A DNA stretch of 64,000 nucleotides from Scyliorhinus canicula. Lineage: Eukaryota. Every line of letters begins with the position of its first letter. Positions within the stretch are counted from its first letter, which is position 1. The stretch spans positions 77,414,520-77,478,519 of the forward strand of contig NC_052159.1 of assembly GCF_902713615.1 (NCBI RefSeq), given 5' to 3'. The position numbers are program-made. Of the stretch, positions 15,001-21,000 are shown piece by piece.

Positions 15001-18000
15001 CGTGGTTCATACTTCCATCTGTGTCTGAACAAAGGTATGGCATGCTTTAAAAAATAGTGGCCAAGTGCCCACTCCAGGATTCCTGTCCCCATTCCCATCA
15101 GATAGGAATTTTCTCGGCCTGGGATAAGGATTTGGAGAGTGAAACCACGTGCAGCAATCCTTGGAGGCGATGGGCATGTTAATCCTCTCTGCCCCATTGG
15201 GTTGGGCCCATTTTGTTCAAGGGTGTTGAAAGGGTGTAGTTTCAGACATTATTTTGGAATTAGTTTTAAAAGCTTTAGTTATTCACTGAGTGTATTGATC
15301 TGCATTGCACGCACAAACCTCAGGTGGGCGGGTCTCCGCTCGTTGGCAGAGAAGCTCATACTCTATGACTCCCATGGGAAGATCCATAGGTCTTGTGAGG
15401 GTTATTATAAAGGAAAATGGTTTTAGACAGGAAACCAAATGTAAAAAAAATGACCAAGTATATCAGCAATGTCTGCATTCCATGGAGGAGCCAGGTGCAA
15501 GAAGGTCACCTTCAGTGGGACCGGACGATTCCGCCAGTGGAGAGGGCTAGAAACTCCTACCCCTCCTCTAACACATTAGATACTTCCTCAAAAAATTCTC
15601 CGTGTTACAAATCTACATTGGCTCCCTGCTGACATGTTTATAAATGCTCAGTCACTTTGTATCCAAGAATAGATTCGATACCAACCCCTCAACTAATTTT
15701 AGATGAGAGGTCTAAACTTTTACTACCCTTATTAAATAATTACATGTCCAAAAAAGATCATTTCTGAATGCAGCATCAGGACTAAAGCATCAACAATTTC
15801 CTTGTCTACTTTTGATTAATTGCCCAAGTATGGAGATAATTGGAACACAGATATCTGTCTACTTTAATCCCATTCTTTTTTCTGTCACCCTCTTGAAATA
15901 CTCAACAATGCTCAACTGTGGGTGGCACAGTGGTTGACAGTGCTGCCTCACGGCGCTTGGGACCAGGGTCAATTCCGGCCTTGGGTGACTATCTGTGTGG
16001 AGATTGCACAGTCTCCCCATGTCTGTATGGGTTTTCTCCGGCTGCTCGAGTTTCCTCCCACAGTCCAAAGATGTGCAGGTTAGGTAGATTGGCCATGCTA
16101 AATTTCCCCTTAATATTCAAAGATGTGATTACGGGGGATAGGCTGGGGGAGTGGGTGAGGTAGGGTGCTCTTTCAGAGGGTCGGTGTAGGCTCCAGAGGC
16201 TAAATGTTCTCCTTCTACACTGGAGGGATTCTATGGATTATTGTGGGATTAGACATTTAATAGAATCATAAAATTTACAGTAAAGAAAGTGGCCATTCGG
16301 CCCATTGAGTCTGCACCAGCCCTTGGAAGGAGCACACTACCTAAGCCCACACCTCCACCCTATCCCCGTAACCCCACCTAACATGAAAATCTAGAAGTTG
16401 TTGTCAGAGATACCTGGTTCCTCCATGGGATGCAGACTTTGCTGATATACTTCGATCTGAAAGACTGGTAATGTTTTCTGTCTATAAACATTTGCCTTTA
16501 TAATGATCTTCAAGAGACCCATGTGCATGTGTGCATATCAATCGATCTCCCCTTTGAACTGGTGGAATGGGAGCTTCGCCGCCAGTGGGTTGAGGACCGC
16601 CCAGCCGGGGTTTGTAAACTCGCCCTTCAAAAGCCTTCCCAGACTGGGACTGGCATTTCTGGCACTGCCAACTGTAACCCTGGAGTTGTAAACTGCGTTG
16701 CGGTCTTTACTTTATGTTAACTAATTAAATGTTGTTTAACATATCTTCTCGGGCCTCCTGAACTTTTATAGCCTTCCTCAGAATATTTATTCTATTTACT
16801 GCATGTCATTTAAGCCAAATTTATCATTCCTGGTTTACACTTTGGCATTTCCCCAATTTAACTTTATGCAAGTTAATGGATTTTGACCAAGTTAATAACC
16901 AGCGGTAGAATTCTCAGTTTCTGAGACTATATGTTTACGCCGAGACAGGATTGGTGGATTTCCACAATGGCAAAGGTGGCACCACACCTGGACCAATTCA
17001 GCAACCATGGAGGAACTAGCACCAGCACCATGTGGAACACAATCGATTCCAATGAGAAACAGTGCCGGATTCACAATTGACACTCAGGAGACTGACAAGC
17101 TGCAGCTGTACATGCACACTTCATTCCCCACACACACCATCCCAGCCAACAAGATGGCAGCAAGGATATCAGGACCGAGATTCATAGATGCCGAGCTTGA
17201 GACCCTCCTGAACACCATGGAGGAGAGGTGGGCCATCCTGTACCCTGGCCGGGAAGTAGGCTGCCAGCCGCCGCCGTTCGCCATGCCTGGACGCAGGTAG
17301 CAGAGGCAGTAAGCGCCCGAGCAACACGATTCAGACCTGCATCAGTGCATAAGAAACTGAATGACCCTCTCAGGGAGGCCTGGGTGAGTAGGCACATAGT
17401 GCCCCTGGCACCAACCCCCGTCGCACACACCCATAATTCTACCCCTCCCCACCAGGAGGGCGGCCAAACCCCACCCTGCACATGTCAGAACCAATACTGT
17501 CCGTCATGGCTAGGTGCCCGGTCACTGAAGCCTCCAGCTATCCACCCCTGGGCTGCATGCGTTGGGCTGTCTAACACTGCGCATTTCTGTTCCCCCTCCC
17601 CCCAGGAGAATGCCACCACGACTGGGAGAAGGCAGGAGGGGGAACCACCGGACCTGCAGCCCCTCACCGTGGCAGAGCAGCGGACGCTGGACATAGTCAG
17701 TGGGCCTGAGGAAAGGGCAGTTGCCGAGGTGAAGATCGGCCTCGGATGAGGAAGTGAGACCCCACTGATTTGAAGTTCTCCCTGAGATGTGTGTCACCCC
17801 GCAACACCAGCCTCACCCCCCACACCACCCCCACACTCACACCATCCCCTCACCCCCGCTTCACACACTGCCACCATCACCACTCCCTCCCGGCACCCAG
17901 TCTAACCATGCATCCTGCTTTGCAGGACGTGCTGGGCCGGGTCCTTCTGGTGTACCCCGCCCCCAGCCACATCCAGTATCATAGCCTTTGCCACAGTCAG

Positions 18001-21000
18001 AGCAAGAGCCCCAGGAGCTTATCAGCAACAAGAACACCCACACTGAAGGGAGCCATCAACCGCGATCCAGGGCACCCCGGAGCTCGAGTCCGAGGATGAC
18101 ACTGTTTTCCCATCACAACTGTCTCTAACACCCTCCACCATCCCAGAGCCACTCACCCTGATTGGCCGCTTTAGTAAAGAGGCACATGGGACACTATCTG
18201 GTGATCACTACACAAATGCTCCAGTACATCAGGTGGTGGTCAGAACTCCCGAGGGGGCAGACAGTCAGTAGGCGGGCTAACTGCAAGGACTAGCTACCGT
18301 CCAGATGGATTTCAGGCTTCTGGAACGGACAGTGGAGATGCAGTCACATAGCGAAGGACTACATAAGGGGTTGTCGGCGGGTATCAAGCACCTGCAGGCA
18401 CAGGTGGAAGAGTTCAACTGTGTGCAGAAGCAGGTGGTGGTGCTGGCCATGCGTGCCACCCTGGCCAACACCACATGGGTGGCATCCATAGTGGAGGCCT
18501 TGGAGGCGAGGGATTCAGCTATGGATCGGCATGTCCAAGGCCTGGAGCAACCTGTGCAAGCAGTGGCCAAGGCCCAGGACAGGGCTGCCCTCTCACCAGC
18601 AGCCATGTGCCAGAGCTACCTCGACATTGCAGTGGTGTTCCTGAGCGTGGCACAGTCACTGTGGGCCATAGCTGAGCGTGTCGGCGGCATTGCCCAGGCA
18701 CTGGCCAACATGGCACAGATGCAGAGGGAGGTGGCCAGTGCCAGAGGGAGATGTCGCAGTCACTGGCTGATGTGGCACACTCGCAGCATGATGTGGTGCA
18801 GTCCCAGATGGAGGTGGTCCACGCCCTCTGCTCCATGGCCACGAGATTGCAGACCCTGTTTGAGGCGGCAGCAGGTCTTCAGGAATGGCAGCGCCAGGTG
18901 GCGGGGGTGCCTCAGGGGATGGCTCCGCTCGGATTCCCATCCCATGGAGTAGCTCAGGGCCTTCGGGTACCTCCAGAAATGAGGTGGTGATGGGGACCTG
19001 CCGGTGACTCCCGCAGGAGAGGTGCTGAAACACCGCACCACCTTGGAACCTCCTCCCTTCCATGACGCATCTCATGGGCAGCGGGAATAACAGGTTGGCA
19101 CCAGAAGCCATGCCCATCCAGACCTGGTCGCCCCAGAAGACGGCTATCAAGCAGTACCCAGGTCACAGGGCTGGACTCAAAGCAGGCTGTCTCCACTCCT
19201 GCTATACCATCTTGAGACCCACATAGACATAGCGTTAGATCCACCTAGATATAGTGTTTACCTCAGAAAAGTAGATACCAGTTAAGTTGGCATGAGTGCA
19301 GGGCACAGTTTAATGATAGGGGCTAAGGCATTTACAGTATGTGCAGAATGGAAAGCATTGATGCTGTTGTTGAGGCACCAGAAAATTAGGAATTGGTGTG
19401 AAACCGGTGCCCGCCACTATTTTGCGTCAAAACCGATTCTTCGCCCAATCGCGTTTCCCGATTCCGATGTCAGCCGACAAAGAATTCCACACCAGGAGTC
19501 TCAGTGAGAATTATTCAATCTGATTGGATGAACAGTCTACCTGCTTCTTGTCCTGCTCAGAGTTGCCACAATTTCTCTGTAAAGGCTAGCTTGCTGTATC
19601 AGACAACTGTTCGAGTGACTCTCCTACCAAAACCTTTCTGGGTAGCTATCATTAAGGTGAACAAGTGAATGTTGCTCGTTTACTACCAATCCCCAAATCT
19701 CGGCTAATAAATGTGATTAGTTCTGCCACATTATTTATTTTAAGTTTTCCTTAAGTTCCGGGATCAGCTTTCTCTCTACAATTCGAACAATTGATAATCA
19801 TTTTACATATTGGTTCAACTGCACACAGCACTCCAGATGTAGTTGCACCAGTACAGTTTGAAAATTAAAAAACTCAACAGATCCGATAGCACCCATAGAT
19901 AGAGGAACAGAGTTAATAGCCAGGATCTGCTTGTACCCTACCCCCAGTTGCGGGTTTTCCGCCAGCGGATGTATCGCCATTGGCTGGCAACATCTTTTGG
20001 TGCTGCCAAAAACAATGGTGTTTCCTTGGCTCAGAAAACCTGCCAAAGGCCAACGTGAACCTCATTTGCATTCGGGGATGAAGACTTGACCCACTCCCTC
20101 CATGCCAGATTCTCTGTGATGACGGTAGGAAAATATGCTGGCATGAAACACATTCGGAACAAGGCGGCATGCAGATGTCAGGACTCATTTGAACAATGCC
20201 TGGGACTGCCTCCATAGTTCAGGATGGAGGGAGCCTGCAACCCTGGACCCAGGAACATCACAGCAGTGGGCCAGGAATGCATCTGCAGGTGGACCTTCCA
20301 GATTAGGTGTCCTGGATGGGGTCCAACGTCCAGCCTCAGAATGTTCCTGGGTATCCACCTTCATTCTCAGGAGGTCCATCCTCTGGTTTCGGAGAGCTCC
20401 CGGAGATCTATCTTTATTTTTAGAAGGTCTACTTTCTTTCTTTAATAGTGGGCCAGTCATGTTGGCCGCCTTATCAATATGGCACCCGGACATGTCAACA
20501 GACTATGCGCCATCAGGCCTGCCCCACCACTGAATGTGGTGTAAACCACCCAGGCGCATAATTAATGAGGTTGGGGCTGGAAGATGTGGCGTGTTTTCGT
20601 CCCAACCTCAAAAGCGGGAAACACCCACGTTCCTACTCTCACCCCTTTGTCTCAAAATGGGAGAATTCAGCTCTCTGTTTCTCTCTCCACAGATAGTATC
20701 AGTCCAGCAAACTTTTTCTACCACTTTGTTTTTATTTAAATTTTCCAGCATCCGCAGCATTTTGCTCATATTTTCCCAATATAAGTTACCTTTCTGAATT
20801 TCTATCCTCTGCTAGAATTTTTTTCAACAGCCTGGAAACACTGTATGGATGGTTTTCATGACCAGTACACTAAAATGCAAGAACTCTCCTTTGTCAATAC
20901 ATAAAGTTCACTCCCATTTAACATATATTCCACATCAATCTTACCTCAGCCAATATAATAATTTCCCCATATTAAATTAAATCGATTTGTTCTTAGTCAA

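What the first reader, a model, noticed from the sequence alone, without database searches (positions are those of the whole stretch)
16903..19492. Harbinger-like element that keeps only a spliced Myb/SANT gene (copy 1)
Seen: a 2.6-kb unit with TIRs and a 3-bp TSD (CAG). It contains a three-exon gene: Myb/SANT-like trihelix exon, a short GG-P-DL..LT..E exon, and a long exon with Ala/Gln/Val heptads. I could not recognise any DDE transposase. Known: autonomous PIF/Harbinger elements encode a HARBI1-like transposase plus a Myb-like DNA-binding partner, and vertebrate NAIF1/MSANTD genes derive from the latter. Inference: this may be a lineage that spread while supplying only the DNA-binding partner, either as half of a split two-component system or as a regulator of the many MITEs, and is raw material for domestication.
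Basis: partly seen in the sequence, partly recalled or inferred. Interest (0 to 1): 0.66.

Follow-up and report, generated by a model that had tools for sequence, protein, structure and literature searches.

The report
Dead Myb-only Harbinger-type transposon copy
This is a decayed copy of a shark-type jumping gene that carries only the DNA-binding helper gene and no cutting enzyme, an arrangement so far described only in a nematode.

Summary
Window 16903-19492 is bounded by a 13-15-bp inverted terminal core and identical CAG flanks. Three MITEs in the window share that core, and each has its own 3-bp duplication. Its relatives are 'uncharacterized proteins' of catsharks and smooth-hounds. They have an N-terminal Myb_DNA-bind_5 domain, a conserved linker and a long heptad-rich helical region. 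No DDE transposase signal appears in any frame, and the gene fills all but about 250 nt at each end.

A second copy on the minus strand (about 42987-46331) is very diverged. It has the same 5' spacing, intron positions and phases, no transposase, and is also broken.

Best reading: a fossil non-autonomous PIF/Harbinger (PHIS)-type element that depended on a transposase supplied in trans. Whether the Myb-only form itself multiplied cannot be settled, because no shark genome could be searched. The same concept was published in 2026 for Caenorhabditis inopinata, so this is a new member of a known kind. Interest is moderate.

The parts
16900..16902 (.). Left copy of the 3-bp target-site duplication (CAG)
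   Evidence: Read. Identical to 19493-19495. One of 4 identical-flank pairs among 18 candidate pairs.
16903..19492 (+). Copy 1: a 2590-bp non-autonomous Harbinger-type element carrying only a Myb-like gene
16903..16917 (+). 5' terminal inverted-repeat core
   Evidence: Fits the pattern GGGYGSRATTCTCCG with 3 mismatches. Aligns from its first base with the MITE termini.
17154..19242 (+). Broken three-exon gene for a Myb/SANT-like protein with a coiled-coil region. Exons are 17154-17383, 17606-17753 and 17926 to about 19242. Introns are 17384-17605 and 17754-17925. Breaks: 3-5 frameshifts and at least 4 in-frame stops.
   Evidence: GT..AG ends read. tblastn of relatives gives outer bounds 17103-19242. 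In the frameshift-aware alignments, exon 1 matches P0003 residues 49-125 (36 of 75 identical) and exon 3 matches P0001 residues 236-615 of 623 (156 of 368 identical). No Pfam hit on the frames as they stand.
19478..19492 (-). 3' terminal inverted-repeat core
   Evidence: 10 of 15 positions match the 5' core.
19493..19495 (.). Right copy of the target-site duplication (CAG)
42987..46331 (-). Copy 2: a diverged second element of the same kind. The 5' end at 46331 is firm. The 3' end at 42987 is tentative.
   Evidence: Perfect pattern match at 46317-46331 (-) and a 2-mismatch match at 42987-43001 (+). The flanks TAT and GAT agree at 2 of 3 positions. tblastx is colinear with copy 1. None of 81 frames of 30 aa or more hit DDE_Tnp_4.
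44040..45769 (-). Broken three-exon Myb-like gene of copy 2. Exons are 45769-45535, 45286-45130 and 45024 to about 44040. Breaks: at least 3 frameshifts and 1-2 stops, measured against its nearest relatives.
   Evidence: Exon 1 frame hits Pfam Myb_DNA-bind_5 at E 3.4e-07, 30.5 bits, cut-off 21.7 (repeated). Alignment to P0003 covers residues 49-126, 127-171 and 193-525.
45875..46195 (.). SINE copy nested in the 5' non-coding part of copy 2
   Evidence: 74-84% identical to 7 other SINE copies in the window over 160-300 nt.
12302..12784 (.). MITE with the same terminal core and TSD AAG
25439..26102 (.). MITE with the same terminal core and TSD TTT
26673..27418 (.). MITE of the same family as 25439-26102, with TSD AAG
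   Evidence: 69% identity over 595 nt to the neighbouring MITE.

Best explanation
Window 16903-19492 is a fossil, non-autonomous DNA transposon of the PIF/Harbinger (PHIS) type.

Shown:
- It has a 13-15-bp inverted terminal core and a 3-bp target-site duplication.
- It has one internal three-exon gene and no transposase.
- The gene's intact relatives in sharks encode proteins of about 480-660 aa.
- These have an N-terminal Myb_DNA-bind_5 trihelix, a conserved short linker helix, a disordered acidic/Ser-rich stretch and two helices of about 88 residues each with heptad periodicity.
- The gene occupies 17154-19242, leaving about 250 nt at each end.
- It is now a pseudogene.

Inferred from the established two-protein mechanism of Harbinger elements:
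- When intact, the protein bound the element ends and recruited a DDE transposase encoded elsewhere in the genome.
- Element and transposase therefore formed a system split across loci.
- The MITEs that share the terminal core would have used the same machinery.

A further inference, held at about 0.55: the Myb-only layout was itself the unit that multiplied. A second, very diverged copy in the window has the same layout.
For: Ends:
- CAG/CAG flanks and the terminal core.
- Pattern enrichment of 25 matches against 5.06 expected.
- 4 of 18 site pairs have identical 3-nt flanks, against about 0.28 expected and 0 in the shifted control.
- Ten termini align over the core.

Gene:
- GT..AG introns.
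- The representatives search with the long-exon frame gave 6 hits at E<=1e-3, the best 6.9e-15.
- Named relatives are uncharacterized proteins of Scyliorhinus canicula, S. torazame and Mustelus asterias.
- 5 of 9 relatives carry Myb_DNA-bind_5 at the N-terminus and none carries a DDE domain.
- Only two loci in the window match them.
- Exon-by-exon alignments, counts of breaks and contiguous residue numbering across intron 1.
- AlphaFold model of P0003: three helices in the Myb zone and two long helices at pLDDT 64-80.
- Heptad signal and profile hits to designed coiled coils only.

No transposase:
- 0 of 63 frames of copy 1.
- 0 of 81 frames of copy 2.
- 0 of 146 plus 22 frames of 80 aa or more in the rest of the window.

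Shared layout:
- The terminal core lies 251 nt before the ATG in copy 1.
- In copy 2 the distance is 562 nt, of which 321 nt are a nested SINE.
- Intron phases are the same in both copies.
- Copy 1 scores best with P0001/P0007 (376/340), and copy 2 with P0003/P0002 (363/357).

Literature:
- The two-protein mechanism (passages of PMC9179366 and PMC9392472; abstract start of PMC2836001 in a search listing).
- MADF-only Harbinger derivatives expanded in C. inopinata (PMC13668399, abstract and Discussion).
Against: - The inverted repeat is short and imperfect (10 of 15) and is not significant by itself.
- The terminal pattern was defined post hoc from MITEs of this same window.
- Pfam finds no Myb domain in copy 1's own frames.
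- No transposase with these ends has been seen anywhere. The superfamily call therefore rests on TSD length, the terminal core and the kind of gene.
- The four TSDs (CAG, AAG, TTT, AAG) do not fit the TWA of classical PIF/Harbinger. Only CAG fits the CWG of the NuwaI group (PMC4482050, passages).
- Only two copies could be examined.
- Copy 2's 3' end is tentative, and about 0.95 kb between its gene and that end is unexplained.
- Copy number, expression and selection could not be tested.
Confidence: 0.75

Rival explanations
1. It is an ordinary one-off deletion derivative. Copy 1 and copy 2 each lost the transposase gene independently from normal two-gene Harbinger parents of their own subfamilies. 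The Myb-only form never multiplied as such.
For: Non-autonomous PIF/Harbinger elements are usually direct deletion derivatives of autonomous ones (PMC2213677, abstract passage). Only two copies were seen. Their 3' parts differ: about 250 nt after the gene in copy 1, against about 0.95-1.05 kb in copy 2. That extra stretch in copy 2 is unexplained.
Against: Neither copy has any DDE remnant. In copy 1 the gene leaves no spare interior. The 5' spacing and the intron layout are the same in two subfamilies that no longer align at DNA level.
Confidence: 0.3
2. It is gene capture. A MITE-like element with these ends picked up a fragment of a host Myb/SANT gene, introns included, as Pack-type elements do. 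On this reading the gene has nothing to do with transposition.
For: The interior shares nothing with the MITEs beyond the terminal core. The gene keeps its introns.
Against: The captured domain would happen to be exactly the one that Harbinger elements themselves encode (Myb_DNA-bind_5). The whole gene, from ATG to C-terminal tail, lies inside the element rather than a fragment. Two diverged subfamilies show the same arrangement.
Confidence: 0.07
3. It is a host gene or decayed paralogue of a shark-specific Myb/SANT gene family, possibly a domesticated one. It merely lies between two chance matches to the MITE terminal motif.
For: Relatives are annotated as ordinary protein-coding loci with intact frames of 480-660 aa. 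The Atlas places them near Myb_DNA-bind_5 clusters, and a NAIF1 cluster scores 0.89, which is a lead only.
Against: Terminal cores in inverted orientation lie about 250 nt outside the gene on both sides with identical 3-nt flanks. A rough chance estimate from the background rate and the 1/64 flank odds is of the order of 1e-6 (inference). A second copy in the opposite orientation has a perfect core at the equivalent place. Both copies are dead and sit downstream of teneurin exons, probably in an intron.
Confidence: 0.05
4. It belongs to another DNA-transposon superfamily that also makes 3-bp duplications, not to PIF/Harbinger.
For: No transposase is available to classify it. The TSDs do not fit TWA (PMC4482050 passages).
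Against: The only gene carries the Myb_DNA-bind_5 domain typical of the Harbinger partner protein (PMC9392472 passages). Tourist and Harbinger types are reported as the most common DNA transposons in a carcharhinid shark genome (PMC12498223, passage).
Confidence: 0.05

Closest known systems
Harbinger-1M_cIno and Harbinger-2M_cIno of Caenorhabditis inopinata (PMC13668399; abstract and Discussion read)
   Same: PIF/Harbinger-derived elements that keep the Myb/SANT-type DNA-binding gene and lack a DDE transposase frame. They coexist with short non-coding derivatives. The transposase is proposed to act in trans, and one family has no DDE source and is eroded.
   Different: Nematode rather than shark. 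The domain there is called MADF, here it is Myb_DNA-bind_5. The shark protein has a long coiled-coil C-terminal half and a three-exon gene. Copy numbers (258 and 1,376 there) are unknown here. One nematode family is still active, whereas both window copies are dead.
Canonical two-gene Harbinger elements of fishes (as described in PMC9179366 and PMC9392472, passages)
   Same: TIRs, a 3-bp duplication, and a Myb/SANT trihelix protein that binds the ends and the transposase.
   Different: No transposase gene in either window copy. PMC9179366 did not detect Harbinger elements in the elephant shark and asked for other cartilaginous fishes to be examined.
NuwaI group of the PHIS superfamily (PMC4482050, passages)
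   Same: An animal group with CWG duplications. Copy 1 has CAG.
   Different: The three MITEs with the same terminal core have AAG, TTT and AAG. Group membership is defined by the transposase, which is missing here.
Domesticated Harbinger Myb-like genes NAIF1 and MSANTD1-4 (PMC9392472, passages)
   Same: The same domain family. A NAIF1 cluster is among the nearest Atlas clusters (0.89, lead only).
   Different: Those are single-copy genes at conserved positions without TIRs. The window copies are TIR-bounded, duplicated, diverged and broken. The coiled-coil half did not return any of those proteins in my searches.
Tourist-like MITEs mobilised by PIF/Pong-type elements (PMC2836001, abstract start in a search listing)
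   Same: Short non-coding elements that share only the ends with a coding element and depend on proteins supplied in trans.
   Different: In that system the coding source carries both ORF1 and the transposase. Here the only coding relatives seen carry the ORF1-like gene alone.

Membership tests
PIF/Harbinger (PHIS) superfamily, as an element | 3-bp target-site duplication | tested here: met
   CAG/CAG at copy 1. 4 of 18 terminal-core pairs have identical 3-nt flanks against about 0.28 expected.
PIF/Harbinger (PHIS) superfamily, as an element | Short terminal inverted repeats | tested here: met
   A 13-15-bp core is shared by 10 termini. Within copy 1 it matches at 10 of 15 positions, which is not significant alone.
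PIF/Harbinger (PHIS) superfamily, as an element | DDE transposase of the DDE_Tnp_4 kind, which defines autonomous members and the subgroups | tested here: not met
   0 of 63 frames, 0 of 81 frames in copy 2, and 0 of 168 further frames of 80 aa or more in the window. It can therefore only be filed as a non-autonomous relative.
PIF/Harbinger (PHIS) superfamily, as an element | Second gene for a Myb/SANT-like DNA-binding protein | tested here: met
   Copy 2 exon 1 hits Myb_DNA-bind_5 at 3.4e-07, as do 5 of 9 relatives. Copy 1's own frames give no Pfam hit but align to the domain of P0003 at 36 of 75 identical residues.
PIF/Harbinger (PHIS) superfamily, as an element | TWA target, as in classical PIF/Harbinger | tested here: not met
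   The TSDs are CAG, AAG, TTT and AAG. Only CAG fits the CWG of NuwaI (PMC4482050).
Myb/MADF-only Harbinger derivatives (the C. inopinata kind) | Keeps the DNA-binding gene, lacks the DDE gene, has TIRs and a TSD | tested here: met
Myb/MADF-only Harbinger derivatives (the C. inopinata kind) | The Myb-only form is itself multi-copy | tested here: inconclusive
   Two diverged copies with the same layout lie in 64 kb. No shark genome collection was available for a census.
Myb/MADF-only Harbinger derivatives (the C. inopinata kind) | A DDE source elsewhere in the genome with compatible ends | not testable with these tools
   The only genome collection open holds bacteria and archaea. None was seen in the window.
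Pfam PF13873 Myb_DNA-bind_5 | Score above the gathering cut-off of 21.7 bits | tested here: inconclusive
   Not met by copy 1's frames as they stand, because the domain is split by a frameshift. Met by copy 2 (30.5 bits) and by relatives at 22.4-40.1 bits.
Domesticated Myb-like host gene (NAIF1/MSANTD kind) | Single copy, no TIR or TSD, intact frame at a conserved position | tested here: not met
   The copies are TIR- and TSD-bounded. There are two copies. Both are broken. Synteny was not testable.
MITE (Tourist-like) | Short, with no coding capacity | tested here: not met
   Copy 1 is 2590 bp and is filled by a gene. The neighbours 12302-12784, 25439-26102 and 26673-27418 do meet this feature.

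The most novel reading that the evidence does not exclude
Sharks carry a long-lived Harbinger-type lineage that has propagated for a long time as a Myb-only element. It would have at least two subfamilies with under 50% protein identity, both present in several carcharhiniform species. Each would encode a DNA-binding partner extended by a long coiled coil. The catalytic enzyme would be kept at very few separate loci. The Myb-only elements, not a two-gene master, would set which of the abundant MITEs can move. This would be a vertebrate counterpart of the split system just described in a nematode, and a standing pool for domestication, given the intact annotated relatives.
Probability: 0.3. Interest if true: 0.6.

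Novelty: new member of a known kind. Interest (0 to 1): 0.4.

Why it matters
Harbinger elements need two proteins. How that two-part design shapes their evolution is an open question. The first report that the two functions can live on separate descendant elements dates from 2026, in one nematode. A shark family with the same layout would show that the split arises independently in vertebrates. Cartilaginous fishes are a group for which one survey (PMC9179366) found no Harbinger elements in the elephant shark and called for more species to be examined. The family also supplies candidate sources for the repeated domestication of Myb-like genes. This particular locus is a dead fossil with no present function.

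Tried and rejected
- blastn of the element against the window found only itself. The second copy appears only at protein level.
- A generic local alignment of the ends gave no significant inverted repeat.
- The terminal 200-250 nt of copy 1 match nothing else in the window beyond 11-17-nt words.
- The search for homologous proteins with copy 2's exon 1, lengths 'longer', found nothing.
- The listing of cluster members could not be made because the database was switched off. 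The sources of P0002 and P0004-P0006 therefore stay unknown.
- A PDB sequence search with the family profile returned only designed coiled coils, 22 rows at E<=1. With the 125-residue Myb part of P0003 it returned 0 rows at E<=10.
- Fold search was busy twice and was not run. The model is low-confidence overall in any case (mean pLDDT 49.9).
- The Atlas search on the largest frame of copy 2's unexplained 3' stretch gave no lead (best 0.76).
- GATTC/GAATC words are not enriched at copy 1's ends: 0 and 2 in the terminal 120 nt.
- The flanks of both copies, searched separately, have no paralogous empty site in the window.
- Rfam gave no match. The only tRNA-like hit is unrelated to the element.
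- The joined three-exon coding sequence was not built or searched. Exons were handled one by one.
No coding DNA of the intact relatives was available.
- Supplementary files were not seen. Repeat tables of the shark genome papers may already list this family. Repbase and Dfam could not be consulted.

Full report
WHAT IS THERE. The two 15-nt termini match each other, as inverted repeats, at 10 of 15 positions. They contain the palindrome GAATTC. By themselves they are not more than chance: a local alignment of the two 250-nt ends is reached by 83 of 200 shuffles.

The ends gain weight from their surroundings. Reading 25250-27650 showed MITE-like units whose ends fit GGGYGSRATTCTCCG. That pattern, with up to 3 mismatches, occurs 25 times in the window against 5.06 expected, and 0 of 100 shuffles reach 25. 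Both ends of the finding are among the matches, although they were not used to define the pattern.

Of 18 plus/minus pairs of such sites lying 60-5000 bp apart, 4 have identical 3-nt flanks:
- 12302-12784 (AAG);
- 16903-19492 (CAG);
- 25439-26102 (TTT);
- 26673-27418 (AAG).

Chance would give about 0.28 of 18. A control using the next 3 nt outward gives 0 of 18. Ten termini align from their first base over 13-15 nt, with 4 invariant columns and 5 more at 90% or above, and with nothing conserved further in. The ends and the 3-bp duplication are therefore real features of a family to which the finding belongs.

THE GENE. The frames as they stand give no Pfam family: 63 stop-to-stop frames of 30 aa or more at E<=1 returned only six sub-threshold chance rows.

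The 223-residue frame of the long exon (18281-18949) was searched against 1.84 billion representative proteins. It found 6 proteins at E<=1e-3, the best at 6.9e-15. Word-indexed searches named some of them and their kin. All are 'uncharacterized protein LOC...' entries:
- Scyliorhinus canicula: P0001, P0008, P0009;
- S. torazame: P0007;
- Mustelus asterias: P0003, P0010, P0011.

Two further hits come from unnamed sources and were not followed. Both searches scored only the 8000 candidates sharing the most words, so these lists are lower bounds.

Five of nine relatives carry Myb_DNA-bind_5 at the N-terminus, scoring 22.4-40.1 bits against a cut-off of 21.7. None carries a transposase domain. 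Their alignment (A1) shows a common plan:
- a Myb domain;
- a variable acidic/Ser-rich part;
- a conserved Ser/Gly-rich motif;
- a long Ala/Gln-rich repeat region;
- a basic tail.

An AlphaFold model of P0003 built on A1 is poor overall (mean pLDDT 49.9). It places three helices in the Myb zone (60-77, 88-105, 111-139), one helix on the linker (151-167) and two long helices (292-379, 384-472) at pLDDT 64-80. The family profile hits only designed coiled coils in the PDB. Copy 1's long-exon frame shows hydrophobic autocorrelation of 0.23 at lag 7 and 0.22 at lag 14.

The exons were searched one by one. The joined coding sequence was not built or searched.

EXTENT AND STATE OF THE GENE. tblastn of the nine relatives hits only two loci in the window, 17103-19242 (+) and 44046-45784 (-). 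In frameshift-aware alignments, of which only scores, bounds and counts were kept, the matches are:
- exon 1 to P0003 residues 49-125, 36 of 75 identical; the Pfam domain of P0003 is 56-131;
- exon 2 to the linker;
- exon 3 to P0001 residues 236-615 of 623, 156 of 368 identical, reaching window position 19242.

The gene thus fills 17154-19242. That leaves 251 nt before it and 250 nt after it, with no room for a second gene.

It is broken. Exon 1 has 1 frameshift. Exon 2 has 0-1 frameshift, depending on the reference protein, and 1 in-frame stop (seen). Exon 3 has 2-3 frameshifts and 3-5 stops against the three full-length alignments. The shorter alignment to P0002 crosses none. The total is at least 3 frameshifts and at least 4 stops.

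A SECOND COPY. tblastx of the element against the window gives a colinear series of weak matches on the minus strand between 44145 and 45782. blastn finds nothing. There the first exon frame hits Myb_DNA-bind_5 at E 3.4e-07, 30.5 bits.

The exons are 45769-45535, 45286-45130 and 45024 to about 44040. Their introns begin with GT and end with AG. The intron phases are 0 and 1, as in copy 1. Exon 1 ends at residue 126 of P0003 and exon 2 starts at residue 127, which supports the splice model. This gene is also broken: 1 frameshift in exon 1, none in exon 2, and 2 frameshifts plus 1-2 stops in exon 3 against its nearest relatives. The counts are higher against distant relatives.

A perfect match to the terminal pattern lies at 46317-46331. 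It is 562 nt upstream of the ATG, and 321 nt of that (45875-46195) is a nested SINE. The remaining spacing is about 241 nt, against 251 nt in copy 1.

The nearest candidate for the other end is 42987-43001, with 2 mismatches and flanks TAT against GAT. That end is tentative. The 0.95 kb or so between the gene's end and it is unexplained: there is no Pfam family in 81 frames of 30 aa or more (7 further frames inside the SINE were left out), and no Atlas lead.

Copy 1 scores best with the Scyliorhinus proteins P0001 and P0007 (376 and 340). Copy 2 scores best with P0003 and P0002 (363 and 357). The two copies therefore represent two subfamilies, and each has intact relatives in other sharks.

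NO TRANSPOSASE. Nowhere in the window does a frame hit DDE_Tnp_4:
- copy 1, 63 frames;
- copy 2, 81 frames;
- the rest of the window, 146 + 22 frames of 80 aa or more. Shorter frames outside the two copies were not scanned.

The only other families found are an L1-type endonuclease at 119-664 (-) and teneurin N-terminal exons at 51182-51505 (-) and 61163-61744 (-).

HOW IT MOST LIKELY WORKED. [quoted passage not shown] The Myb-like protein binds the element ends and the transposase, and both proteins are needed for transposition. According to the abstract start of PMC2836001, seen in a search listing, the same machinery moves Tourist-like MITEs.

From this I infer that the shark protein bound the shared terminal region through its trihelix. 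I also infer that it used its long helices for self-association or for contact with a partner enzyme, and that the enzyme came from another locus.

Shown: the ends, the duplication, the gene, its family, the absence of a transposase and the decay. Inferred: DNA binding, the partner, and the link to the MITEs, which share only the terminal core with the two copies.

COMPARISON WITH WHAT IS KNOWN. The closest published case is Caenorhabditis inopinata (PMC13668399, abstract and Discussion read). There, MADF-bearing Harbinger derivatives without a DDE frame expanded to 258 and 1,376 copies. A single locus keeps an intact DDE gene for one family, and none does for the other. The authors state that such a separation had, to their knowledge, not been reported before in the superfamily.

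Other points from the literature:
- For cartilaginous fishes, PMC9179366 did not detect Harbinger elements in the elephant shark and asked for more species.
- PMC12498223 (one passage) reports Tourist and Harbinger types as the most common DNA transposons (1.58% in all) in the grey reef shark.
- The PHIS survey (PMC4482050, passages) gives TWA duplications for classical PIF/Harbinger and CWG for the NuwaI group. The four duplications here (CAG, AAG, TTT, AAG) fit neither cleanly, and a subgroup cannot be assigned without the enzyme.

My library searches turned up no paper describing this shark family:
- 11 papers, 9 listed;
- 33 papers, 15 listed;
- 3 papers, 2 listed;
- 620 papers, 12 listed.

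I read only listings and the passages cited. Supplements, Repbase and Dfam could not be consulted, so the family may already be catalogued there.

VERDICT. The Harbinger-type, Myb-only reading is well supported (0.75). The stronger claim that the Myb-only form was the multiplying unit is plausible (about 0.55) but rests on two copies. The rival of independent deletions stays at about 0.3. This locus itself is a dead fossil downstream of teneurin exons, probably in an intron. It is a new member of a kind described in 2026, of moderate interest.

Noticed in passing
51182-51505 (-) and 61163-61744 (-): Two exons of a teneurin gene (Pfam Ten_N, E 4e-44 and 2.5e-30, model positions 62-160 and 1-68). 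The host gene is transcribed on the minus strand. Both Myb-only copies lie downstream of these exons, probably in an intron.
   Followed up: no
1-2065 (-): The 5' part of an L1-like LINE. It has an ORF1-like frame and the start of an endonuclease (Exo_endo_phos, E 3.2e-07), and it runs off the window's start.
   Followed up: partly
12302-12784, 25439-26102, 26673-27418; fragments at 38158-38289 and 41518-41619: MITEs that share the terminal core, each with its own 3-bp duplication. Several ends carry an inverted partial copy of the core about 20 nt further in. The 8-mer RATTCTCC occurs 29 times against 5.68 expected.
   Followed up: partly
9749-9982; also 5028-5042 (-) and 40241-40255 (-): A variant terminal motif with ATTTTCC instead of ATTCTCC. 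It bounds a 234-bp unit whose 3-nt flanks differ (AAT and ATT). This may be a sister MITE family.
   Followed up: no
45875-46195, with relatives at 29680-29976, 49675-49972, 25002-25244, 4568-4776, 33583-33752, 3660-3815 and 15921-16110: An abundant SINE family, 74-84% identical between copies. One copy is nested in copy 2.
   Followed up: partly
11672-11759 (-): A tRNA-Ser-like sequence (ARAGORN). It lies inside a repeat with further copies at 33086-33240 and 37627-37781, so it is probably the head of a tRNA-derived SINE.
   Followed up: no
42987-43950: About 0.95 kb between the end of copy 2's gene and its candidate 3' end has no Pfam family, no match elsewhere in the window and no Atlas lead. 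Its origin is unexplained.
   Followed up: partly
26567-26600 and about 27288-27320: Long G runs beside and inside the MITE at 26673-27418. Their translations caused the only spurious Pfam rows.
   Followed up: no
Relatives P0001 and P0008 (not in the window): Two intact relatives in Scyliorhinus canicula have consecutive locus numbers (LOC119953007 and LOC119953008) on the same 131.9-Mb contig. This suggests neighbouring copies.
   Followed up: no
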